Shown: positions 4,157 through 56,110, counted from the first letter of the whole stretch. The stretch is 62,975 bases of DNA, filler included, from Folioceros fuciformis (GCA_049999805.1; 8 parts of 8 records of this genome joined end to end with filler, not necessarily neighbours in it), one strand, 5' to 3'. A program made the numbers and translations. Notes: generated by a model not told the origin, from the letters alone.

Positions 4157-5881
4157 ATGTCTATCAGCGAGTTGCAAGAGCAAAATGCTACGGCAAAGGC
4201 GGAAGTGCGTAATCTCAGGGAGCTGCTGCAGCGGCGGCGCCTGGAGTTGGCTGACATGGACGGTTCGTGCCCTGCGTTTTCGAGTTCAATGGCTTCTATG
4301 CCGTCGTACGGAGAAGCGCTACCCTCGTGTTAGCGCTGGGGAAATATGTTGCTGAGGTTGTTTTTGTTTGCAGTCGTGACTTATGCAAGGATGAATGGTC
4401 GATCCATTATTGATGGAGAGCGATTCTCTCGTGACTTCAAGTGTGTAAGAACACTTCAGGGGCACACAGGCAAGGTAGGGATTTTCCATCAGCGTGTAAG
4501 CTCTTCAACGTCCTGTGCTACCGTAGCCTGCCACGGTGTGTCATCATTAACACTTTTTCCTCGTCTTTGCCAGATTTATTCTCTTGATTGGTCACTCCGC
4601 GAAAGAAATCGCATTGTCAGTGCCTCTGGAGATGGGAGGCTTATTGTTTGGAACGCCCTGACAAGCCAGAAGACTCATGCAATAAAGCTCCTCTGTGCTT
4701 GGGTAATGGCCTGTGCATTTTCACCGGGAGGCGAAAGAGTTGCCTGTGGTGGACTGGACAATTGCTGCTCTATTTTCAACTTGAATACCACACCTGACAG
4801 AGATGGAAATTTGCCCGTTTTCAGAGTGCTGACTGGCCACAAGGGCTACCTATCCTGTTGCCGTTTTGTACCTGACCAAGATGCACATATCATCACAAGT
4901 TCTGGGGATCAGACTTGCATGCTTTGGGACGTAGAAGCCCAACGCCGACTCGCAACATTCGGGGGTGACACTGGTCCAGGCCACACCCGGGATGTCATGA
5001 GGTGATTTTAGGGTCCCATCTTCCCCCTCTTCGAATGGTGGTAATCGACGAGCTGGCTTGTCCTTTTGTTAGGAAGGCCGAAACTGGTGTTTTTATTGCG
5101 ATGGCGAGGAGGTTTGTGTGTCGACTAATTGGAAGAGTGATTTGTTTGTCACTGTTGTCGTTTGCAGTGTATCGATCAGTTCGCACAACACTAGGATATT
5201 TGTTTCTGGCTCCTGTGACATGACGGCAAGATTGTGGGATACTCGAATCGCAAGCAGAGCAACCCACACGTTTCATGGTCATACGCAAGATGTGAATGCT
5301 GTGCAGTTTATGCCCGATGGATTCAGCTTTGGAACTGGTTCAGATGATGGCACTTGCCGAATCTTTGACACCCGCACGGTTCATGAGCTACAAAGGTACC
5401 CTGACCCATATGCCATCGGGTCGGTCGCAAACCCTGCGCGAGAAGCTGGACAGGTTACCTGCATGGCATTCTCCCACTCCGGGCGACTATTGTTCGCAGG
5501 GTACTCTAACGGTGCCTGTCTGGTGTGGGATACAATAATGGCTCAGGTTAGGGGTTATCTCCCTATGGATCATTGGACTTCATTGCTTTGTTGGCTACTG
5601 AGATGTTGCGAGTTGTATAACCTGACATCTGTGCTCGGGGTGTGTATCAGCCTATCCATGACTTGGGAGAATCTCATAGGAATCGAGTAAGCTGCCTTGG
5701 AATGGCATCCGATGGAAGTGCCCTTTGCACTGGAAGCTGGGACGCCTGCCTTAAGGTAACTCGTGCCTGTCCATTTCCATTGCTCAAAGCAGGGTGAGCT
5801 AGTATCAAGGTTTCAGATGTACTGCGACTGATGTATGTGTAGGTCTGGGCGAGCGATTTTCAATCGAGAGGACAGCAATAA
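4157..5881 (+). CDS. AGB1: Heterotrimeric G-protein beta subunit (WD40)
   Basis: Six exons: about 4157-4262, 4373-4474, 4574-5001, 5168-5546, 5651-5755, 5843-5881. Peptides [10 protein letters not shown]..., [35 protein letters not shown] and [10 protein letters not shown] match plant G-beta. Confidence 0.95.
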
Positions 5882-6254: not shown

Positions 6255-8255
6255 TTAAAGCATCGCTTTTATGTGCACACCCGCGTCCGGTTCCCTCTTG
6301 CTGTCCTTCAGGGTGTCGGCCACATGCGCTACAACCCCTGCCCCTTCATAGTGCATCCACTCGTGCTTCACCTGCAGCGGACGAGGAAACAAGTGACGCC
6401 GTATCTCCACATTCAAGCTTCTGCGGACAAATCACGGACGATAATCCGCTTACGTGAATACTGTTATGAGCCAGGTAAGGCCACAAAGTCGCATGGAAAT
6501 TCACATCCACCTTCCGCCAGCCCACTCGCTGCAAGCCTTTGATCATTTCCTCTGCGCACCACACGGCTGATGAGAGCCTCCTTCTACCAGGGCAGGACGG
6601 CACAGCAGGCCGACTATCCCATGCGCAGCGATCACCTACTAACCTTCCAACTTGTCATGATAAGAAGCTTCGGTCTGGCTACTTGGAATGGTCTGTGCGA
6701 CCGCCTTGGCTTTAGCACTGTCTTCTCCGAAAGTTGGGGAGCCGCTCGTCACTGGAGCGCAATCAACCACCCTCACCACGTGCTTGTACGCCTTCAATGA
6801 TTCCTTAGGAGGCTGGACGCATTGCATTGCGTTTCATGCCCACCACCGCTTTGTTTCTCAAATATCGATGCTAGTCACCTCCTAAAATTTGGTTACAGTA
6901 CGGGATCTCACCTTAACCTCGGTTTCTCTCCGGATTGACGAGGTGCGCCAGCCTACCAAGTCTGGGACAAGTTATGTGAAGGAGACCCTTCCCTTTGCAT
7001 ATTTATCTCAGACAAGCAAGCTTGTGCATCCATGGGCTTTACAGCAAGGATACGATCGTAGCTCACATTCGCGTACAACACCCGTAATTTGAAAGCGCGC
7101 AGTGCAGATCTGCATCAACAGACGTCATCAGAAACGCCTTGATTCAAGGGCCAAGCACGTATAGACGCAGAGGAGATGAAACGGAAAGGGGTAAAGGGGT
7201 AGTGATGATCATCAGCCCACATCAACGCACATGAATTTGCCTTCCTCGGCATCTGAAGCCATGCGCAAGAGAAGTGGTGGGTCTTTTGCTTTTCCATCTG
7301 TCAGAAAAAGTTGTCTACCAGTGCGTCCGACTACCAGAGGAGCCAGGGGCGGCACAAGCTTCTCCAGGACAGGGACCCCTAGGAGGATGGGTAGCTGGGC
7401 AGGTCAATCACAAAAACAATAACGTGGTGTGTGAATTCTAGTCCAAGAAATAAGATTCAGACGTTACACAGAGCACTCCCTCACCTGCTTCTTTCCTCTC
7501 ACTCCAAGGTGTGGGGTGGCAAGAGTTATGAGGGTGATGGGTTGCAGTCCTGCGATGGTGCCAAGAGGCCCATCCCTTTCATTGTTGCCATTGCCATCAG
7601 GAATCGATGCAGGCTTGTACAAAACAGCAATCGCGTATCGGGTAAAGAGGCCCCCCAGGGAGTGCGCCACAAACGAGATCTTCTTCAGGCTGGGATTCTT
7701 GGTGACAACCTGCCGAATCTGCACGGTGAATGATAGAGACCCTGTGATTCACGTCTTGCTTCATCTTCCTCGCCGGGTGACAGCGCAACAGTTCAGAGTG
7801 CATGGAACACAAGCACGTCATTGAGGAGAATTAACCTCATCCGCGAGTCGCCTTCCCGAGCTGTCGATACCAGTAAGAGTCTGGAGATATGAGTTGACAC
7901 TGCTAGCTGTGAAGCAACAGTGAAGCAATGTGTTAGCAAGACACCCGATACGCAATCAGAACCCAAGAAGCAGATGAAGCAGCCAGAAATGCCATAAGCA
8001 TCTTACCATGAATCAGGTAGCTGGTGCCCAGTTTACCCTTCAGCTCTCCTTGAACGTATCTCCAGTCCTTCGCGCTGGATGGGAAAGCTTCATTTACACA
8101 CACCCCCTTCTGACCATGATGATGATGCACCTGCTACAGGACGGCTGCGGAGCATACCTGGCGAGAATTCCATGTACAAGCACTAAGAGATGGTCGGGTA
8201 GTGCATCGGAGCCTTCACGTTGGGTCTTCACAACCCCATCCACGCTCTGACTCAT
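6255..8255 (-). CDS. DUF676 putative lipase/serine esterase (alpha/beta hydrolase); N-terminus may extend upstream
   Basis: Spliced motifs PDHLLVLVHGILAS, ISFVAHSLGGL (nucleophile elbow), LATPHLG, YANVSYDHLVGWRTSSIRRE and AHNSIHVK; stop at 6257-6255. Confidence 0.9.
6962..7053 (-). other. U12-type (minor spliceosome) GT-AG intron
   Basis: Donor GTATCCTT; branch-like TCCTTCAC about 15 nt from the terminal AG; removal restores SYD-H-LVGWRTSS. Confidence 0.85.
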
Positions 8256-9563
8256 CGCTGACAAGGAAACATGAATTCCTGTCTTCCTGCTGCCAGCCAT
8301 TGCCACAGATTTCTTAACGTCTGAGTTCCGCTAACCACAGTGAACACAATTGAGGCGGATCTGACCATCAGAACCGTGCACAGCTCAGATTACCGGGTGG
8401 CTGCAGCAACCACGGTTCCCACAGCCTGGACAACCCCAAAGATTACGAGAGTCCCGTAATAGACACCCAATTGAAGAATCCCCATTGCACAACACGAGAA
8501 GAGCAACAGGAGTTCGTGAATCAAATCAGAATCCCAAGTCCCAGCCCCAACCCCAACTCCTGCTTTCTTGCCCCTGGCCCGGGGAAGTTGTGAATCAGCA
8601 GTCAACTGCATTCTTCCTACTACGCCGATGTGTCCTGTCCCCCTTGTCACACATCCGGCAGAGGGGCTCTGTACTAGATCCGACAGAATCGAGACGTACC
8701 GGTAAGGATTGGGACGGAGGACACAACAAACAAACTCTCCTTGCACGCTGTCGGAGGACGAGAAATTCCAAGAAATTCCAAGAAATCCCAATTCAAACCC
8801 ACGCACAGTCACAGACGGAGAGGAAGACAGAAAGAGTACAACGACTAGGGACAGCGGGTGGGAGCATCTCACTAGTCCGAGGCGAAGCGACGGTGATGGT
8901 GAGGAGGCGGCCAACACAATGCGGCACCAGCAACTGACAATTCCGACGTAAGGCCGCGCTTTAAAGGCACAAGTAGCTGGAGATCCCAGTCCCAGGCCCT
9001 GGTCCTGTCCCCCCTCCTCCCAAACCCGACGACCCCAGCAGCAGCAGGAGAAGAAGCAGGCGGTGGGTGGGGCACCACACTTGAGACATGATGGCAGCTG
9101 CAGCTGCTGCGCATATAAGCTGGGCTCCCAGAAATTGTGGTCTCAGATTTTGCGAGAAGAATAGATCGCGGCGAGGAAACGTGGCCGGCTGAACTTGGGA
9201 TGAGCACCTGCATGCCCTTCACCCTCGCCTTCTGCTGCATGTGCACTTCACCATTTCAGGCACTGTCATGGTACCATACTTGCCTTGTCATCGGCGGTGT
9301 CTCAGCTTTCGTTTGGCTCCGGGCTATGCCATTGGATTACCTTCACGCACGTCGGAAAGGTGATCAGTTGATCCAGCGACTGGGCGCGCTTCCCCGCGTG
9401 GTGAATAATGGGCATGCGTGAGATTAGCAGATGTTTTAACACCGTTTGACGAGGAGCTGTACATGCGATGGGTGCACTTGTTCAATGAATCTTTGCATCG
9501 TCTAAGAAGCCAAACAGGCTGACAAAAAAAATGGACGACGTCCTCCAGGGGTTGACAGAATGA

Positions 9564-12500
9564 CTACAGAGGAGGGTCGTCTTGTCGAGGCACATCTCTG
9601 ATGATACGCCAAGGTCCGGAAGCCGTCCCAACCCTGTGAGACAGACAGGGAGGAGAGTTGGCGGGCGGAGTGGAGTGGAGAGTCAGACAGGGAAGGAGGA
9701 GACGACGCCAGCGGAGGAAAATAGAGTAGCCTGGTTACCTAGCGAAGCCTGCCACCATTCGCAACGTCATAATGACCGTCAAACCAATCCAAACTCCCAC
9801 CAGGCCAAATGCCCGAGGCGCCAAGAGGAGGACAAGGATAGACGGGATCGCAGTCAACATCTGTGATAACAATCCGTGAGATGGTAAGCACGACCATTCA
9901 AATAGACTCACAACTAGGAGGGGTGGTACTTGAGGGACAACAAACCATGGTGTAAGCCGCATAAGCGAAGTCGGACGCTCCATAGTGCAGGCCATCGAAG
10001 ACAAATGCCAGTGCGTTGATCGGTTGCGTGAATGCAACGAACTGGGATACACCAACAATATCCCTTAACACTGTGGATTATCAATCTAAGCTTGAAGACC
10101 AAAGGATAGAAGCAGGCTCATACCGGAATCAGGTAAGGAATAATTTCTAGAACGCCAGCATCAGTCGTGAACAGACCGGCCATAGGGCCAGTCCCAAAAC
10201 CTAAAATAATGGCAACCACAATTCCGAAAGCCAAACCCATCTGTACACAGCCAGGACGAAGAAGTCAGATGCACCCAATTCCAACCCAGCACCTCGAGAA
10301 CCAGATGTACGGTGTCCCGGTTTCCAAACCTGCAGTATCCGGACGGCAACCTCCTTCACTCGCCGCGTGTCTCCAGAGGCAAAAGACCCAGCTAAGATTG
10401 CCTGCTCGACAGATACATACATGCAAACTGAGAGTACGAACTAGCGTCCAGCCTTAAGCTGGAAGTATCACCACCGGAAGGGACAAAGTCGATGGCTGCC
10501 AACAATGTACCTGACCAGCCAGAGCCAGTGCATCTGAAAGAAGCGACGTTGCTAACCAAATTTGCAAGCAAATCTGGTGTGCAGCCATTGGAATGGCACC
10601 CTGCCTTGCAGCCATGGACGTGGCCAATGTCATTGTACAGACAATGGCGAGTGTCCGACCAAGTAGCAGACCACCTACATGGTCAGCTATGAGACAAATG
10701 CTTGAATGCCGCGCGTCCAGGAGAAAGTTCAACGGACGTCAACAGTATCGTACCTGATTTTAAGAACCGCTCCACTTTCAAGTCACTCCACTTGGGGGGT
10801 AACAAAACAACCCGCTGATTAAGGCTCCACAAGAGCATGCCCACAATCAGGTACCTGCCACCATATGAAGCAAGCCTTGTGAGGAGTGAAAATAAGAGAG
10901 AAGATGTGCGAACCAATTGACACGGCACGCGTAGACAACACAAGATTCTAGGCTTAGTGACTCACTGGGATGCTACCGTCGCAATAGCTGCTCCGCTGAC
11001 CCCGTAGTGTAGCGAGAACATTAGTATAGGATCCAAGACGATATTGGCAACGTTTCCCGCAACTGCAAGGGAAACCCAAGTCAGCCACGAAAAATATGCC
11101 AAGTAATGGAGGGACAGCAATGCTTCAATGAGCATAATAGATGCTCACCTGTTGAATAGAGAGGCGTTTTGGTATCCTTGAACCCTCGAAAAACACCTTG
11201 TACCGCTAGCGAGACTACCACAGCAGGGGCACCAAAAGCACGTAGTGCAAGATACTGTTCAGCAGGAACACGCATTGGAGAGTCCTGCATAACAAGATAG
11301 ACATGCACATCAAAATCATGTCAAAAGTGACACCAAAGCCCAAGATGCATCACGTTTGTCCAGATGCCTGCTTATTAATGAAAAATAGCGTTCGTCTACT
11401 CACAAAAGGAATGCCCATGGCGTATAGAACTGGCCCTGCTGCAAATACAAGGACTGCTGCCTCAAACAAACCAAGACAAGCGCCTAAGACCAGTGAAGAT
11501 GAGACTGCCGGCATCATAGGCTTTGTTGATTCTGCAGAATTTGTCACAAGACGCGCACAAAAGTTGATCAGAGAAAATACAGACCACAGACAAATGGAGG
11601 TGAGGCGCTTCGAAGATGTCCAGCCAACAATACAGCAAACTTACTGGTTGCTTTCAAAAGAGACTCCCTCTCCATTTCCACCAATAAGGATGGGACTTCA
11701 TCCAACTCCACATTTTGATTTGACTTTTCGACGGCTTCATCTTCGGCCACAAATGATGTCGTAACATTCAAAAGGGGGATGTTGAACATCTTAGAGACGA
11801 GATTGAATATGGAGATGGAGACACCAACAGCTGCCAGCTCCACTGGACCTGGATCGACAGAATTCACAACCAAGTGCATCAGCTTGTCTGCTTTACCAAC
11901 CGGGGGGGGCCTAAACAAAACTTGTGCAGTCAGAAGATAAGAGAAGGCATTCTCAATGGGAAACTTCTAGCAACTGCATTGCCACTTCCCTTGGCTCTGC
12001 TCCTTGGCAAAGAGAATCTACGACTAAGAGAACCTGTGAGACAACGACGCGACTGTTTGCAACTCTAGTTTACCAAGCAGACAAACCAACCATTACCAAA
12101 TGCACCAAATGCACCAAATGCAAGCCACAACCAGAAACATTCAGGTCAGTGCACAAGAGGAGAAATTAAGAAAGCATGAAAGCATGAAAGCAATAGGTGA
12201 GAGCTTTATGACAGTAGAAACATGCCTGACACTATTTCCAATACCTATTCGTCCGATGAAGGCGGAGTCGACCAAAGATGCAAGAGGGTCGGCCGCCAAG
12301 GCAAGAACAGCAGGCAAAGCAATGACGGCAATCTCCATGCCAAGCTCATCATTCCTGAACGCATCGCTGGCAGAACATAAAAATTGCACAAGAGTGTCAA
12401 CAGGGCTCATTTTTGTTTGCATAGGGCCTGAGGCTCGCCGGGGAGGCTATGGATGGTTTCTACCAGAGCAGCCCGTCCTACTAATGTAGTACCTATTCTC

Positions 12501-13751
12501 CCTACGTACGCAGTCTCCACAATCTGCGCCGCTGGATCAGCAACCTGAGCTAGAATAGCTGGCACAGCAAGAGCAGCAATCTCCCTCCCAACATCGTTGG
12601 TCTTGAAAATGTCAAGCAGCGCGCAACTGACGTTCATGCAGGACGACAACTTGTGTCAGAGGGATGCCAAAATAGAGACAGCGTTCTGGTAGAAGTAGCA
12701 CGCTCTCTGTTGCTCTAGCCTGACTGTGGCCAGTGACGGTCTGCCACTGGGAGCTGCATTCAGCTCGGCCTCTCGGCCGAGCAAGGTGCTTTACAACTTC
12801 TGTACGAAAGACCCAGGAATCCCGTGAGCTATCATGTAAGGGTTAATATCATGTACCGGGCACTGTGAAAGAGGCCACCGAGAGGACCCCTGCCGTCATC
12901 GAAAAAGAATGGCGACGCATCCGTTCCGTCTGCACCCTCCTGAGTATCCAAACGAGCTGTCACAAGCTCCGTGTTCCTCCTCCGACCTCGCACTGAGCTA
13001 AGACCGCCTTTTTTCCGCCTGAAACTCCATCGCACATCATGGAAATTCCTGCCACTGCATCCTAATTGTGTTCTATCCTGTCCTTGGAAACCTCCTTCCC
13101 TTACAAAACCCCTGCTCCTATTCCTGGCCCGGGCAGCAGCCCCCTGGCCCAAGGCGGAGGCTGGCTGTTCACACCTCCTGCCATGGCACGTCACTGGGAA
13201 TCCAGCAGGTTTAGGAGCAGAAACGTGCGGATCCCGGACACCTGCAGCAGAAACAGCACACAAAACTCATCAGGCCCTGGTCCATCCCGATCCCCTCCGC
13301 TCCCTCGGCAAATGAGTCTCCATTTCCAGGAGAGGCAAAAACAACAAGCCGCCTAGTCCGTGGGCCTGCTCTACCTCAAGCTCAGCTGCGACACACTGTT
13401 CTCTAAGCAGCAAGCCCTCAGAAACGACTGTGCGAAACAACAATGGCAATGCAGGGACTAACAAGGCATCGCAGACGCAGCTCAGCAGTCAAGGCAATGC
13501 CAGGCAGCCAGCAAAGCATCAAACACGACCAGATCGACAGGGACAAGCAGCAAGGATCAGCTCCGGAGTGCGCCAAAGCCACCTCAAGTCCCACTGTGTA
13601 AGCGGAGGTGGTGGCTTCTGCCCAGGAGCAAGAGGAAACGGGCACATCACGAGCAGAGACAGTGGACGCAGGGCAGCCGGACAGTAACATGAGCGGCGAA
13701 GAACGACGCACCCGAGGGAGCAAGGGGAGGAGGGCGGAGGGGCAGAGCCAT
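9564..13751 (-). CDS. MATE/DTX transporter of the DinF-like FRD3/DTX42-45 clade with a probable plastid transit peptide
   Basis: Exon 1 13751-13712 (MALPLRPPPLAPSG), exon 2 13241-12857, alternative exons 12626-12493 and 12366-12245, then GPVELAAVGVSISIFNLVSKMFNIPLLNVTTSFVAED, QGVFRGFKDTKTPL, MAAHQICLQIWLATSLLSDALALAGQ, QPINALAFVFDGLHYGASDF, GTASGPW...; stop at 9566-9564. Confidence 0.93.
12245..12366 (-). other. MATE alternative exon B (122 nt)
   Basis: ctgccag|...|gtattg; encodes DAFRNDELGMEIAVIALPAVLALAADPLASLVDSAFIGRIG; phase 2 in, phase 1 out. Confidence 0.88.
12493..12626 (-). other. MATE alternative exon A (134 nt)
   Basis: cag|...|gtac; encodes CALLDIFKTNDVGREIAALAVPAILAQVADPAAQIVETAYVGRIG; phase 2 in, phase 1 out. 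The acceptor position is less certain than the donor. Confidence 0.75.
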
Positions 13752-53390: not shown

Positions 53391-54480
53391 CACTCCGTAT
53401 TATCCTTGCCATATCCACACATTACAATTATGAGTTACAGATGTATGATGTCAAAATAGCCTTCTTGTATGGCAAATTAGACACTTAAGTATACATGCAG
53501 CAGCCACCAAGATATGAAGTGACGGGTAAGGAAACCATGCTTGCAGACTGATCAAGTGCATATATGGTTTGCAGCAATCAGCTATGAAATGGAATGCTAC
53601 CTTAGACATAGAACTGCTAAAGCTTGGCTTTACCAAGAGTCAGGCTTACAGTAGTTTATACATACATCTAAAAGGAGAAGTTATATACTATCTGGCAGTG
53701 TACGTGGATGATCTAATCTTATCCAGTAACAACCAGGCTTTCATTACAAGCATTAGAGATGTGTTAGCCACAACGTTCAAGATGTCATGCTTAGGACCTT
53801 TACAAAGTTGCCTCGGTGTACACATTCAAAGAAACAGGGAAACACGTGTTATGACTTTGACTCAACCACGTTACCTCCTTGATTATGCTGAGCAACTTGG
53901 CCTTAAGGACGCAAAGCCTGCATCAACACCCATGTCATCTGGTCAGAAGCTAAGTAAAATGATGTCACCTTCTACTCATAATGAGAGAGCAGATGAAAGG
54001 CATACCTTACAGACATGGTGTTGGCAAGCTAATATATGGAAGCAACACACACAAGGCTTGAAATAGCATATACTACAAGTGTACTTTCGCAATTTGTGGA
54101 AACCCAGGGCTGGAACACTGGACAAGTCTTAAACGTGTCTTCAGATACCTGAAAGGCACAGCCAAAATGGGCATTACATATAAATACCAAAATAGAAAAG
54201 CATTGGACCTTGAAGTCTTCACAGACTCTGACTACGCTGGTGATGTTGATAGTGGAAAATCAGTGTCAGGCTATGTGATCTCGATTGCTGCAGGGCCAGT
54301 ATGCTGGTCAAGCAAAAAGCAACCAACTGTTGCATTGTGTTCAACAGAAGCGGAGTATCGCGTTCTGACTGCAGCAGCCAAGGAAATAGTGTGGTGTAAG
54401 TTACTTTGCAAAGAGTTGGGAATATCAATTCCAACTTGCACGACTATCCACACCGACAATCAAGGTTCGATGGCCACACA
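53391..54480 (+). mobile_element. Ty1/copia RT-RNaseH remnant
   Basis: YDVKIAFLYG, IYGLQQS, YVDDL, FTDSDYAGD, WSSKKQPTVALCSTEAEY and DNQGS, with a stop and frameshifts. Confidence 0.93.
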
Positions 54481-55149
54481 CACATCAAGAAACAAAACCA
54501 CATGTAAGCAACCCTTTCAAGAATTTATCAGCAACAGGACATGGTGTGGTGAAACCCTAAACCCTAAACCCATGATTGCAATCTGGGCATTAGAGCAAGT
54601 AATGGGAGATACCATCTTGCGTCATTGTGACTTGGAAGGTGGAACGTAACTAAGGACATAAGTTGTTGGCTATGGCGCTTGAAGATTAAAGACAACCCAG
54701 TTGAATTCACAGTCCACGGGCACTAACACAATAATAAGAATATTAGACTTTAGGAAATAAGGCCTCATTTGCACCAATTGTAGCTAGGTCTTTCAATAGC
54801 CTACTTTAAATAATCTATAAGAAATATCCTTATTATTTAAGTATGCATGACATGTTTTATAGTATTAAATATATTTTTATCTTGATTACTTAAATGCTAA
54901 AGCTTGATTACTATTAATAATTCTTCATGGACTTATAATTTTTTTAGTTTGTAACACAAAGTGCATATGTAGTTTAGGGTTCATTTTGATATCATTCATT
55001 TAATAAGAATGATATACAAATATAGATATATTAAAATCAATAAAATTTGACTATACACTTAAAGCTATGAAATTATATTGTGGAGAGCGTACTTGGAGTT
55101 GGACTTGATATTGTAAAAAATCTTTCCCATTTTTTATAGCATTATATCA

Positions 55150-55630
55150 TGTATGTCACATATGAATCTAAAGATGTTATATTATTTCTATCCAATATAA
55201 GTTTTAAGATGGAAAAGGATGAATGTTAAACTATTTTTACCATAAATGAGTTCAAAGATGGAAGTGCATAAATGTTATATCAATTTTATCACATATGAGT
55301 ATGAAAGTTAACAAATGCTAATTTATCTCTATCACATATGAGTCCAAAGATGGAAGTGGATAAATGTTATACCAATTTTATCACATATGAATAGGAAAGT
55401 TAACAAATGCTAATTTATCTTTATCACATATGAGTCCAAAGATGGAAGTGGATAAATGTTATATGAATTTTATCATACATGAATCTGAAATTTAACAAAT
55501 ATTAATTTATCTCTATTATATATGATTCTAGTTACTAATTTATCTCTATCATATATGATTCTAGTCATGGAAGCGAATAAAAGTTAAATCATTTTTATCA
55601 TATATGGTTTAAAGATGGAAGTGGATAAAG
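55150..55630. repeat. AT-rich tandem array with a unit of about 92 bp made of two related subunits
   Basis: atcacatatgagtccaaagatggaagtggataaatgttata at 55331 and 55423, with degenerate copies on both sides. Confidence 0.85.
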
Positions 55631-55749
55631 TACAAAGATTAGTTATTTTATTTTAAATATACATAATACTAATACTTCTATACATTCAAACAAGTTTATC
55701 GAGTCCAGTATATGTTTTAGAATTAATGCTTGATCAAGATGCTTATAAT

Positions 55750-56110
55750 TATTGGAGTTATCAAGATTCTCTAACTATAATTGGAACTAATTACGATCCT
55801 CTGTAGTTGGAGATCGTGATCAATTCCAAAAAGTGTATGCCAAATTATCATGCCCTGCCTTTAAAATTTCTCGACATATATTAGACTTACTTATTGTGAC
55901 GAATTCAAAAAGAACGAAAAGTTTGATGCGTATGATTGTTTGGAGTTAATCAAGATCCTCCAACTATAATTGAAGTTAATCAAGATCCTCTAGACTTGGA
56001 GGATCCTGATCAACTACAACAATTATACGTCAATTTATTATGCTTGTCTTAAAAAATGTATTGGAGTCACTTACTATGGTGAATTCAAAGAGAACAACAA
56101 ATTTTATGGT
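55750..56110. repeat. Degenerate duplication of about 190 bp
   Basis: ggagtta(a)tcaagat.ctc.aactataattg at about 55753 and 55942, each followed by gaattcaaa.agaac. Confidence 0.7.

What the first reader, a model, noticed from the sequence alone, without database searches (positions are those of the whole stretch)
12245..12626. Mutually exclusive duplicated exons swap TM1 of a MATE transporter between two paralog-like types
Seen: two homologous exons in tandem, A (REIAALAVPAILAQVADPAAQIVETAYVGRIG) and B (MEIAVIALPAVLALAADPLASLVDSAFIGRIG). Both have AG/GT ends, no stops and the same phases (134 and 122 nt, both 3n+2). Either alone keeps the frame; both or neither breaks it. From recalled sequences, A carries the DP.AQ..ETAY.GR.G signature of DTX45-type proteins and B the LALAADP..SLVD.AF.G signature of DTX42/FRD3/DTX44-type proteins. 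In DinF-type MATEs the TM1 acidic residue belongs to the N-lobe cation site, and here it is Glu in A and Asp in B. Inference: one gene may make two transporters that seed plants encode as separate paralogs. Mutually exclusive exons are rare in plants.
Basis: partly seen in the sequence, partly recalled or inferred. Interest (0 to 1): 0.88.

Follow-up and report, generated by a model that had tools for sequence, protein, structure and literature searches.

The report
Ancient alternative TM1 exons in MATE
A plant MATE transporter gene carries two old, tandem copies of the exon for its first membrane helix, which differ at the proton-binding residue, and RNA shows both are used, although much of that RNA cannot make the full protein.

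Summary
On the minus strand, exon A (12626..12493, 134 nt) and exon B (12366..12245, 122 nt) are homologous (20/40 aa), have AG/GT borders and the same phase. Either alone gives a full MATE ORF (621 or 617 aa). Both together, or neither, gives an early stop.

The recalled signatures also hold against real sequences. A has the 'AQ..ETAY' TM1 of NCBI-named DETOXIFICATION 45 proteins and of Closterium. B has the 'ALAADP..SLVD' TM1 of DTX42/44 proteins, liverworts and algae. A-like exons also sit upstream of B in Marchantia and Calypogeia gene models, so the pair is ancient.

The differing residue aligns with HvAACT1 D99 (PfMATE D41), the TM1 proton site (PMC12358922).

Spliced contigs of four runs show E1>A and B>E3 joints, and also contigs running through A, the 126-nt spacer and B, which end in a premature stop. 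The two diagnostic joints were not displayed. E1>B (two runs) and A>E3 (one run, a sister organism) follow from contig ends that a k=31 graph simulation reproduces exactly.

Verdict: a real, ancient alternative-exon pair, probably mutually exclusive, with a large unproductive fraction. The link to seed-plant paralogs is plausible but unproven.

The parts
13712..13751 (-). First coding exon (E0): ATG at 13751, 40 coding nt, donor GTGCGT
   Evidence: The joint 13238>13709 (cut +3) is seen in contigs of X1, X2 and X7.
12857..13241 (-). Exon E1 (385 nt). It encodes the N-terminal presequence and ends ..PLGGLFHSA+CG. Its donor (GTACAT) can join A or B.
   Evidence: Its end is homologous to ..PLSGLFDGI of the Marchantia proteins.
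12627..12856 (-). Intron 1 (230 nt). The roughly 95 nt next to exon A are conserved in related organisms, and the intron is kept in some contigs.
   Evidence: contigs run 12598..12886 (X2) and 12598..12722 (X3, X7; 3-4 differences in about 125 nt).
12493..12626 (-). Exon A (134 nt). It encodes a Glu-type TM1: ..PAILAQVADPAAQIVETAYVGRI.
   Evidence: The joint 12857>12626 is seen in 4 of 4 runs. The whole-contig borders 12491..12627 in X2 fit use of both of its splice sites.
12367..12492 (-). Spacer intron between A and B (126 nt). The A frame stops at the TGA at 12409..12407. In the B frame there are ATGs (MQTKMSPVDTLVQFLCSAS..). The spacer is kept in many contigs.
   Evidence: Logan protein P0003 starts in the homologous stretch.
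12245..12366 (-). Exon B (122 nt). It encodes an Asp-type TM1: ..PAVLALAADPLASLVDSAFIGRI.
   Evidence: The joint 12245>11848 is seen in 4 of 4 runs. It is 80-88% identical to liverwort and Logan proteins.
11849..12244 (-). Intron between B and E3 (396 nt). It is kept in an X1 contig and holds short tandem repeats (12095..12125, 12162..12192).
   Evidence: (X1 record 2, 11821..12272).
11645..11848 (-). Exon E3 (204 nt). It starts G|PVELAAVGVS.. and is the common acceptor for A and B.
9384..11531 (-). Ten further exons, all GT-AG: 11531..11404, 11284..11149, 11062..10966, 10854..10754, 10674..10511, 10401..10330, 10240..10124, 10041..9946, 9860..9739, 9633..9384 (stop codon and 3' end).
   Evidence: Joints. 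Borders. Translation. MatE hits to exon ORFs.

Best explanation
The gene encodes a DinF-like MATE transporter of the plant DTX42-45 / FRD3 / HvAACT1 group, with a long N-terminal presequence. The exon for transmembrane helix 1 exists in two tandem, anciently diverged copies.

Exon B gives the ancestral TM1, with Asp at the proton site (..DP..SLVDSAF..). Exon A gives a TM1 with Glu at that position (..DP..QIVETAY..).

The E1 donor can pair with either acceptor. A productive mRNA needs exactly one of the two exons, because each is 3n+2. Any RNA with both, with the spacer, or with neither runs into an early stop, and is presumably degraded or not exported. I read it as a frame-policed, mutually exclusive exon pair that swaps the TM1 half of the TM1-TM5 carboxylate pair (Asp-Asp against Glu-Asp). 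This would retune proton coupling or pH dependence without changing the substrate-binding C-lobe.

In the RNA available, choice of the A acceptor is often not followed by use of the A donor. A large share of the RNA is therefore the unproductive A+spacer+B form. Isoform A is probably made conditionally, and the unproductive branch may itself set the dose.

Shown: the exons, the frames, the E1>A and B>E3 joints, the retained form, and the deep conservation of A-type exons.

Inferred: the E1>B and A>E3 joints, translation of isoform A, the effect on transport, and degradation of the unproductive forms.
For: (1) Anatomy and frames.

(2) The runs hold RNA-derived contigs. They lack the canonical GT-AG introns of the gene: 13 distinct GT-AG joints are displayed over the four runs, table 5.

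(3) The joints 12857>12626 and 12245>11848 each appear in 4 of 4 runs, from four coded organisms.

(4) Contig ends fit a k=31 graph exactly.
- X1 contigs of 290 nt (12338..12627) and 452 nt (11821..12272) are reproduced only if an E1>B path exists.
- X2 contigs of 137 nt (12491..12627) and 183 nt (12338..12520), plus a B>E3 joint ending at 11825 ('side 22'), are reproduced only if both E1>B and A>E3 exist.
- The rival model with A>B predicts 135 and 184 nt and does not fit.

(5) A-type exons are old and still code.
- M. polymorpha model P0004, compared with P0012 (same gene, identical elsewhere), carries ESVEKEIGVLGLPALLSEAAETGALLLETAFLGSI between the E1 end and B.
- Calypogeia P0014 and Logan P0189 carry similar exons.
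- All 4 of 4 A-type exons keep the P-A, E-T-A and G positions.
- Exon A scores 59.0 bits against the TM1 profile, and B scores 62.2.

(6) Among related organisms, the A-spacer-B block differs at 1.6-3.9% of letters. The constitutive exons of the same gene differ at 6.2-8.1% (Fisher p 0.0003-0.013, computed from the records displayed).

(7) The swapped residue is functionally central. HvAACT1 D99(TM1)/D296(TM5) = PfMATE D41/D184, the DinF proton site, and the paper reports that the D99A mutation significantly reduces citrate efflux (PMC12358922). The window keeps the TM5 Asp (..IVLDPILMF).
Against: - The two joints that define mutual exclusivity were not among the 15 joints the tool displayed (12 more were hidden). 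They rest on my reading of contig ends.
- For A>E3 that reading concerns one run of a sister organism (X2), not the window's own organism (X1).
- In X1, X3 and X7 the assembled contig runs straight through the A donor into the spacer. In X3 and X7 one contig holds A+spacer+B whole, so the unproductive form is prominent.
- No database protein of 78 aa or more contains window exon A. None joins an A-type exon directly to E3. Both are word-index searches and therefore weak.
- A-type exons are only 33-39% identical between lineages, against 80% or more for B, which could mean relaxed constraint.
- The contig-end logic assumes that organism B has the window's letters at the splice borders. X2 records 7 and 8 have 4 and 1 differences at places I could not see.
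- No structured RNA that could enforce the exon choice was found (z +0.96).
Confidence: 0.6

Rival explanations
1. Exon A is only a regulatory, unproductive element. The acceptor at 12626 is an alternative 3' splice site that lengthens exon B by 260 nt and brings in a stop codon. The gene would tune its output through this 'poison' extension, and isoform A protein is never made.
For: Contigs with A+spacer+B in one piece occur in all four runs, whole in X3 and X7. That form stops at codon 215. The whole 382-nt block, spacer included, is 2-3 times better conserved than the constitutive exons, as expected for a regulated splicing module. A>E3 was not displayed as a joint.
Against: A poison element has no need to stay a good TM1. 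Yet A scores like B against the family TM1 profile, keeps an AG/GT frame-compatible exon form, and shares the Glu-type motif with liverwort A-type exons, Closterium and DTX45. In X2, exon A is a separate 137-nt contig whose ends fit use of its donor towards E3.
Confidence: 0.22
2. Exon A is a relic of an old duplication with no present function. Its inclusion is splicing noise that is tolerated because such RNAs are degraded.
For: A-type exons diverge fast between distant lineages (33-39% identity). Plant-like loci L002 and L003, and Logan protein P0005, have B close behind the E1 end with no A-type exon, so the exon is dispensable in some lineages.
Against: A relic would not stay open, hydrophobic and flanked by AG/GT in the window lineage and in liverworts, which form separate clades in the tree (both 98/99*). 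In X2, exon A differs from the window at 1 of 137 letters, while constitutive exons differ at 26 of 420. Its acceptor is used in 4 of 4 runs.
Confidence: 0.08
3. The retained transcripts are themselves productive. Translation starts at an ATG inside the spacer (B frame, MQTKMSPVD..) and yields a B-type transporter without the presequence, that is, one with a different location. Exon A plus E1 would then act as a long leader.
For: The spacer has in-frame ATGs 18 and 22 codons before exon B. The ORF called on a 1713-nt Logan contig of a related organism (P0003) starts at the homologous Met, with 19 of 24 residues identical.
Against: The leader would hold the E0 ATG and a 214-codon upstream ORF, which scanning ribosomes should translate instead. 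The similarity of the spacer can be explained by conservation of the branch point and pyrimidine tract. A contig start is not a transcript start (notes).
Confidence: 0.05
4. This rival concerns the evolutionary reading only. The likeness of exon A to DTX45 and Closterium TM1 would be convergence, or exon-level gene conversion, and not descent from one ancestral exon pair that seed plants later split between paralogs.
For: The TM1-only tree has 34 columns. Holding the A exons with the bryophyte B exons costs 22.5 log-likelihood units but is not rejected (AU p 0.164). Liverwort A-type exons lack the DP and the Tyr of DTX45. DTX45 also changed the TM5 Asp to Phe/Leu in 7 of 7 rows, which the window did not.
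Against: Several shared states lie outside the Glu itself: S/D-V-E/G-x-E at the start, Q/E after PA.., and AQ before ..ETA. All 22 Glu-type rows group at 93/95.6. The rest-of-protein tree places Closterium as sister to land plants, and DTX45 as sister to DTX44 plus Welwitschia. This is the pattern expected from an old exon pair with reciprocal loss.
Confidence: 0.35

Closest known systems
Mutually exclusive exons born by tandem exon duplication (known mainly from animal channels and carriers; reviews PMC9741552, PMC9013439 and PMC5740500 seen as search listing only)
   Same: Two adjacent homologous exons of like length and phase encode the same structural element. Only one can be kept without breaking the frame.
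   Different: This case is in a land plant and in a MATE gene. The spacer (126 nt) is long enough to be spliced. No competing RNA structure was found. A large share of the RNA keeps both exons plus the spacer.
HvAACT1 / FRD3-type citrate MATE transporters (PDB 9l7l; PMC12358922, passages read)
   Same: The closest solved structure by sequence: a close relative of the window protein (P0003, 80% identical to it over 402 columns) matches 9l7l at E 7e-142. The exon B TM1 has both TM1 Asp residues (D92-P93 and D99 equivalents). The TM5 D296 equivalent is present.
   Different: The window protein has Asn at the D289 position and a long presequence, and it falls outside the DTX42/43 clade. Its substrate is unknown. 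No alternative TM1 is described for HvAACT1 in the passages I read.
Seed-plant 'protein DETOXIFICATION 45, chloroplastic' (NCBI name; Amborella P0184, Nymphaea P0187, Lolium P0059)
   Same: Exon A shares the TM1 motif PA..Q..DP.AQ..ETAY.GR.G. It is 59% identical over 34 columns to P0035, its best match.
   Different: DTX45 has Phe/Leu at the TM5 Asp position in 7 of 7 rows and ELAS[AV]G in the next loop, and it forms its own clade next to DTX44. The window gene has none of these.
Unproductive (stop-introducing) alternative splicing coupled to mRNA decay (general knowledge, recalled)
   Same: Use of the A acceptor without the A donor gives an RNA with an early stop. The block is unusually conserved at the DNA level.
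   Different: Here the stop-bearing segment contains a complete, family-typical coding exon that can also be used productively.
Mutually exclusive exons of MADS-box isoforms in Picea abies (PMC6243048, search listing only)
   Same: A documented plant case of mutually exclusive exons.
   Different: Different gene family, lineage and age. I did not read the paper.

Membership tests
MATE transporters (Pfam MatE PF01554), DinF-like plant group DTX42-45 | Significant match to the MatE profile | tested here: met
   The exon ORF 11084..11320 scores 25.9 bits (cut-off 24.9) and ORF 10457..10738 scores 15.5 bits (below the cut-off). The near relative P0003 scores 106.4 bits. The spliced window protein could not be handed to the tool.
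MATE transporters (Pfam MatE PF01554), DinF-like plant group DTX42-45 | Placement inside the streptophyte DTX42-45 clade on the protein outside TM1 | tested here: met
   (45 rows, 403 columns). The window plus P0003 lie in the land-plant clade (95/98*), in an unresolved four-way fork with liverworts, DTX42/43 and DTX44/45.
MATE transporters (Pfam MatE PF01554), DinF-like plant group DTX42-45 | N-lobe proton site: TM1 Asp paired with TM5 Asp (HvAACT1 D99/D296) | tested here: met
   Exon B has the Asp (..SLVDSAF) and TM5 has ..IVLDPILMF. Residue roles come from PMC12358922. With exon A the TM1 partner is Glu.
Mutually exclusive exon pair | Adjacent homologous exons with the same phase and compatible splice sites | tested here: met
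Mutually exclusive exon pair | Each exon alone keeps the reading frame; both or neither do not | tested here: met
   (621 aa and 617 aa, against stops at codons 227, 215 and 161).
Mutually exclusive exon pair | Transcripts E1-A-E3 and E1-B-E3 both exist | tested here: inconclusive
   E1>A and B>E3 are displayed in 4 of 4 runs. E1>B (X1, X2) and A>E3 (X2 only) are inferred from whole-contig ends that a k=31 simulation reproduces. No single record spans E1-A-E3.
Mutually exclusive exon pair | Transcripts with both exons are rare or absent | tested here: not met
   Contigs holding A+spacer+B in one piece occur in X3 and X7 (whole) and in X1 and X2 (in part). These forms are unproductive.
DTX45 orthologue | Glu-type TM1 motif AQL.ETAY | tested here: met
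   Exon A only.
DTX45 orthologue | Membership of the DTX45 clade on the rest of the protein, with Phe/Leu at the TM5 Asp position | tested here: not met
   The gene is not a DTX45 orthologue. Only its alternative TM1 is of that type.
Stop-introducing regulatory exon (poison exon) | Inclusion introduces a premature stop | tested here: met
   Met for A+spacer+B and for A+B, but not for A alone.
Stop-introducing regulatory exon (poison exon) | The included form is a target of nonsense-mediated decay and responds to conditions | not testable with these tools
   Needs decay-inhibition or mutant RNA data.

The most novel reading that the evidence does not exclude
The Glu-type/Asp-type TM1 exon pair predates land plants. 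The ancestor of Zygnematophyceae and embryophytes already switched the proton-site residue of this transporter by mutually exclusive splicing. Bryophyte lineages (the window's lineage and liverworts) still do so. In the seed-plant lineage, gene duplication followed by reciprocal exon loss fixed the two states as separate genes: DTX45 with Glu, and DTX44 and DTX42/43 with Asp. This would be one of the oldest alternative-exon pairs known in plants, and a worked example of alternative splicing being replaced by paralogs.
Probability: 0.33. Interest if true: 0.85.

Novelty: new member of a known kind. Interest (0 to 1): 0.68.

Why it matters
Mutually exclusive, duplication-derived exons are among the few alternative-splicing events with clear effects on proteins, and they are considered rare in plants.

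Here the swapped segment carries the residue that the HvAACT1 and PfMATE structural work identifies as the TM1 proton site. One gene could therefore make two transporters with different coupling chemistry.

The same two TM1 types are fixed in separate seed-plant genes (DTX45 against DTX44/42/43), whose functions are largely unknown. The locus thus offers a natural experiment: the same protein body with an Asp or a Glu helix. It could show what distinguishes those paralogs.

It also allows a test of whether alternative splicing was replaced by gene duplication during land-plant evolution.

The prominent stop-bearing RNA form also makes it a candidate for splicing-based dosage control in a bryophyte-grade plant.

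I found no report of this. Three searches turned up nothing on MATE exon switching among the titles and abstract starts listed: with 15, 15 and 12 papers listed of 615, 216 and 69. I did not read those papers.

Tried and rejected
- Sequencing-run search: no RNA holder listed. The kind of all 22 rows is a guess. I laid 4 of the 22 (X1, X2, X3, X7).
- The read-laying output hid 12 joints, 120 differing letters, 4 indels and 59 records. I could not read the joints 12857>12366 and 12493>11848, nor the substitutions inside A and B (so no dN/dS).
- I also did arithmetic on the per-bin depths. It gave left-over depth of about 21 (X1), 30 (X2) and 0 (X7) for a third path from the E1 donor, and about 700 letter-depths at the A donor in X2 only. 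I do not rely on it, because the tool warns that contig depth is a poor measure.
- No break at the A donor in X1, X3 or X7. Contigs drop rare variants, so this is not evidence of absence.
- Whole genome: none is held, so paralogs in the same genome could not be searched and the organism could not be named. A hornwort is my guess, from 79-119-nt introns and about 50% GC (recalled properties, not tested). The tree only shows a lineage separate from liverworts.
- Earlier findings of the scan: nothing.
- Protein search with exon A alone among longer proteins: no hit at E<=0.01. Search with the three-sequence A-type profile: only P0004, P0014 and P0189, plus three weak matches at E 0.14-3.4, two of them named bacterial MATE proteins. 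I set the E-value limit too low to see weak DTX45 matches.
- RNA structure as exon selector: the fold of 12230..12740 has z +0.96. There are only three short inverted repeats of 11-13 nt. Rejected for lack of signal.
- Third exon copy: none in the window.
- Alternative first exon or promoter for A: rejected, because E1 is spliced onto A.
- Assembly artefact: rejected, because independent contigs of four organisms carry A, spacer and B in the same order.
L002 and L003 show the E1 end about 90 nt before B with no A-type exon. Their organisms are unknown.
- Gene models P0004 and P0014, which fuse an A-type exon to a shortened B: I read these as annotation artefacts, since they would add a thirteenth helix. 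This was not tested.
- Literature on DTX44/45 function: only gene lists appeared among the listed papers.


Full report
**What is there**

The region lies in a 14-exon gene on the minus strand (about 13751 to 9384). Exon A is 12626..12493 (134 nt). Exon B is 12366..12245 (122 nt). Each follows an AG and precedes a GT. They are separated by a 126-nt spacer.

Spliced contigs supply the other exon borders, and all are GT-AG. The exon upstream of A (13241..12857) has no in-frame ATG. The start codon is in a further exon (13751..13712), joined across a 470-nt intron that contigs of three runs skip.

With these borders:
- The A-only mRNA encodes 621 aa.
- The B-only mRNA encodes 617 aa.
- A+B stops at codon 227.
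- A+spacer+B stops at codon 215.
- Skipping both stops at codon 161.

A and B are 20/40 identical (E 3e-10). They are the only two TM1-like stretches in the window (59.0 and 62.2 bits; the next best is 6.9).

**What the gene is**

Exon ORFs and the closest full-length relative match Pfam MatE. The closest solved structure to that relative is barley HvAACT1 (9l7l, E 7e-142).

The nearest named proteins to exon B are from liverworts (Marchantia, Riccia, Calypogeia; 80-85%). An unnamed Logan protein, P0003, is closer (88% on B; 80% over 402 other columns).

A tree was built on the protein without TM1 (45 rows, 403 columns). It gives:
- Closterium as sister to a land-plant clade (95/98*).
- Inside that clade, an unresolved fork of the window lineage, liverworts, DTX42/43, and a clade of DTX45 plus (Welwitschia, DTX44) (100/99*).

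Group names rest on NCBI names seen: DETOXIFICATION 42 Brachypodium, 44 Gastrolobium, and 45 Amborella, Nymphaea and Lolium. I could not name the window's organism, because no genome is held. A hornwort is a guess from intron size and GC content (recalled).

**Are the two exons of two 'types'?**

I aligned 117 database proteins of 430 aa or more, together with the two window isoforms (119 rows in all). The proteins came from a full HMMER scan seeded with P0003 plus the earlier hits.
- 82 have Asp in the ..VD[TS]A.. position of TM1.
- 20 have Glu with the motif AQL.ETA[YF].
- 15 are other or broken.

The 20 Glu-type proteins are 17 of the DTX45 group and 3 Closterium-type. All 10 Glu-type representatives I looked up are angiosperms, and 8 of them are among these 17. 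Exon A has the Glu motif (AAQIVETAY) and exon B the Asp motif.

On the 34 TM1 columns alone, all 22 Glu-type rows fall on one side of a branch (93/95.6). These rows are the four A-type exons, 15 DTX45 and 3 Closterium. Forcing the A exons to group with the bryophyte B exons costs 22.5 log-likelihood units but is not rejected (AU p 0.164). The recalled signatures are thus correct, and the grouping is moderately supported.

**Age of the pair**

Two Marchantia polymorpha models of the same gene differ only near the 5' end. P0012 joins the E1 end to B. P0004 places ESVEKEIGVLGLPALLSEAAETGALLLETAFLGSI between them.

Calypogeia P0014 (against P0015) does the same with ESLEKELGRMVLPALVSEAVGPMAQLTETAIIGTFI. 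A Logan ORF, P0189, reads through a third such exon.

All A-type exons keep Glu at the key position. They are only 33-39% identical to window A, whereas B exons are 80% or more alike. The exon pair therefore predates the split of the window lineage from liverworts.

It is not universal. P0005 and the plant-like metagenome loci L002 and L003 have B shortly after the E1 end, with no A-type exon.

**RNA evidence**

The run search listed no run recorded as RNA. However, the contigs of the four runs I laid lack the gene's GT-AG introns, so I read them as cDNA-derived. X1 is identical to the window (12 of 12 pieces at 99% or more). X2, X3 and X7 are other coded organisms at about 92-98% identity.

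Displayed joints include 12857>12626 (E1>A) and 12245>11848 (B>E3), each in 4 of 4 runs.

Contigs also run unbroken through A, the spacer and B:
- whole in X3 (12243..12627) and in X7 (the same, plus 26 nt of E3);
- in part in X1 (12338..12627) and X2 (12338..12520).

Contigs cover intron 1 and, in X1, the B-E3 intron. The ten downstream introns are only ever joined across. The tool hid 12 further joints, so the two diagnostic joints could not be read directly.

**Inference from contig ends**

Logan contigs come from a k=31 graph (recalled) and end at branch points. I simulated the graph from window sequence for different sets of isoforms.
- With E1>A, intron-1 retention, A+spacer+B, B>E3, B-E3 retention and E1>B, the predicted pieces include 290 nt (12338..12627) and 452 nt (11821..12272). 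These are exactly X1's records.
- Adding A>E3 splits exon A into a 137-nt piece (12491..12627) and a 183-nt piece (12338..12520), and shortens the B>E3 piece to end at 11825. These are exactly X2's records and its 'side 22'.
- A model with A>B instead predicts 135 and 184 nt, which does not fit.

Hence E1>B is inferred in X1 and X2, and A>E3 in X2. This is indirect. It assumes the same border letters in organism B, and it concerns one run for A>E3.

**Constraint**

From the displayed records, the A-spacer-B block differs from the window at 11/385 (X3), 15/385 (X7) and 5/320 (X2) letters. Constitutive exons of the same gene differ at 65/802, 53/683 and 26/420 (Fisher p 0.0003, 0.013 and 0.0015).

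In X2, the contig that spans exon A plus three flanking letters differs at 1 of 137 letters. The roughly 95 nt upstream of A are similarly conserved. This nucleotide-level conservation, spacer included, is typical of regulated alternative regions. No stable or complementary RNA structure stands out.

**Mechanism proposed**

The HvAACT1 structure paper (PMC12358922; search listing and passages read) reports the following:
- TM1 carries D92-P93 and D99.
- D99 pairs with D296 of TM5 and equals PfMATE D41/D184, the proton site of DinF-type MATEs.
- Protonation there bends TM1 and drives the conformational switch.
- D92A and D99A reduce citrate efflux.

Exon B has both Asp residues. Exon A keeps the D-P but has Glu at the D99 position. 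The window's TM5 keeps the Asp. Choosing A or B therefore swaps an Asp-Asp pair for a Glu-Asp pair at the coupling site and leaves the C-lobe untouched.

I infer a change in pKa, pH dependence or coupling. This is not tested.

DTX45 differs further: it has Phe or Leu at the TM5 position in 7 of 7 rows, and a different TM1-TM2 loop. Isoform A would thus mimic DTX45 only in TM1.

**Rivals**

- A purely regulatory, stop-introducing extension of B fits the abundance of the retained form. It does not fit the family-typical coding quality, the exon-like borders or the deep conservation of A.
- A functionless relic fits the fast divergence between lineages and the loss in some plants. It does not fit the within-genus conservation or the constant use of A's acceptor.
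- Internal initiation in the spacer is possible, but it is disfavoured by the long upstream ORF.
- For the evolutionary reading, convergence or exon conversion cannot be excluded with 34 columns.

**Verdict**

This is a real and ancient pair of alternative TM1 exons in a DinF-like MATE gene, most likely used in a mutually exclusive, frame-policed way. A large unproductive RNA fraction accompanies it.

It is a new member of a known kind of splicing event, unusual for plants and for its age. I found no report of it in three literature searches (listed titles and abstract starts only).

The idea that seed plants replaced the exon switch by the DTX44/DTX45 paralogs is attractive and consistent with both trees, but it remains unproven.

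Noticed in passing
window 4334-5700 (+): ORFs with WD-repeat sequence resembling a G-protein beta subunit (..GHTGKV.., ..LWDV.., ..[10 protein letters not shown]..), split by short introns. This is a neighbouring gene.
   Followed up: no
window ~7460-8330 (-): ORFs with a serine-hydrolase-like motif (..SFVAHSLGGLFTRYAIAVLY..) and ..LLVLVHGILA.. They suggest a lipase/esterase-type gene on the minus strand.
   Followed up: no
window 12095-12125 and 12162-12192 (intron between exon B and E3): Short tandem repeats: a 9-nt unit (GCATTTGGT, 3 copies, minus strand) and an 8-nt-spaced GAAAGCAT family. In X7 a small odd joint (12181>12105) lies here (table 5c).
   Followed up: no
P0004 (Marchantia polymorpha) and P0014 (Calypogeia fissa): Public gene models fuse the A-type exon in frame to a shortened B exon. 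This gives two TM1-like helices in tandem. They are probably annotation artefacts caused by the duplicated exon.
   Followed up: partly
P0006, P0013, P0010, P0012 (Riccia, Marchantia), TM5: All 4 of 4 Marchantiales proteins have Cys where HvAACT1 has the proton-site Asp D296 (..IILCP..). Calypogeia, the window, and 2 of 3 Closterium-type rows keep Asp, while the third (Logan P0040) has Leu.
   Followed up: no
window 12367-12440 (-) and P0003 residues 1-24: The 3' part of the spacer is an open frame continuous with exon B. It starts with Met and is 19/24 identical to the start of the ORF on a Logan transcript contig of a different, related organism.
   Followed up: partly
window 12226-12237 and 12648-12659: A 12-nt inverted repeat (10 of 12 complementary) brackets the whole A-spacer-B block, just upstream of A and just downstream of B. 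It is short enough to be chance.
   Followed up: no
window 54001-56000: GC content drops to 0.32, against about 0.5 elsewhere in the window.
   Followed up: no
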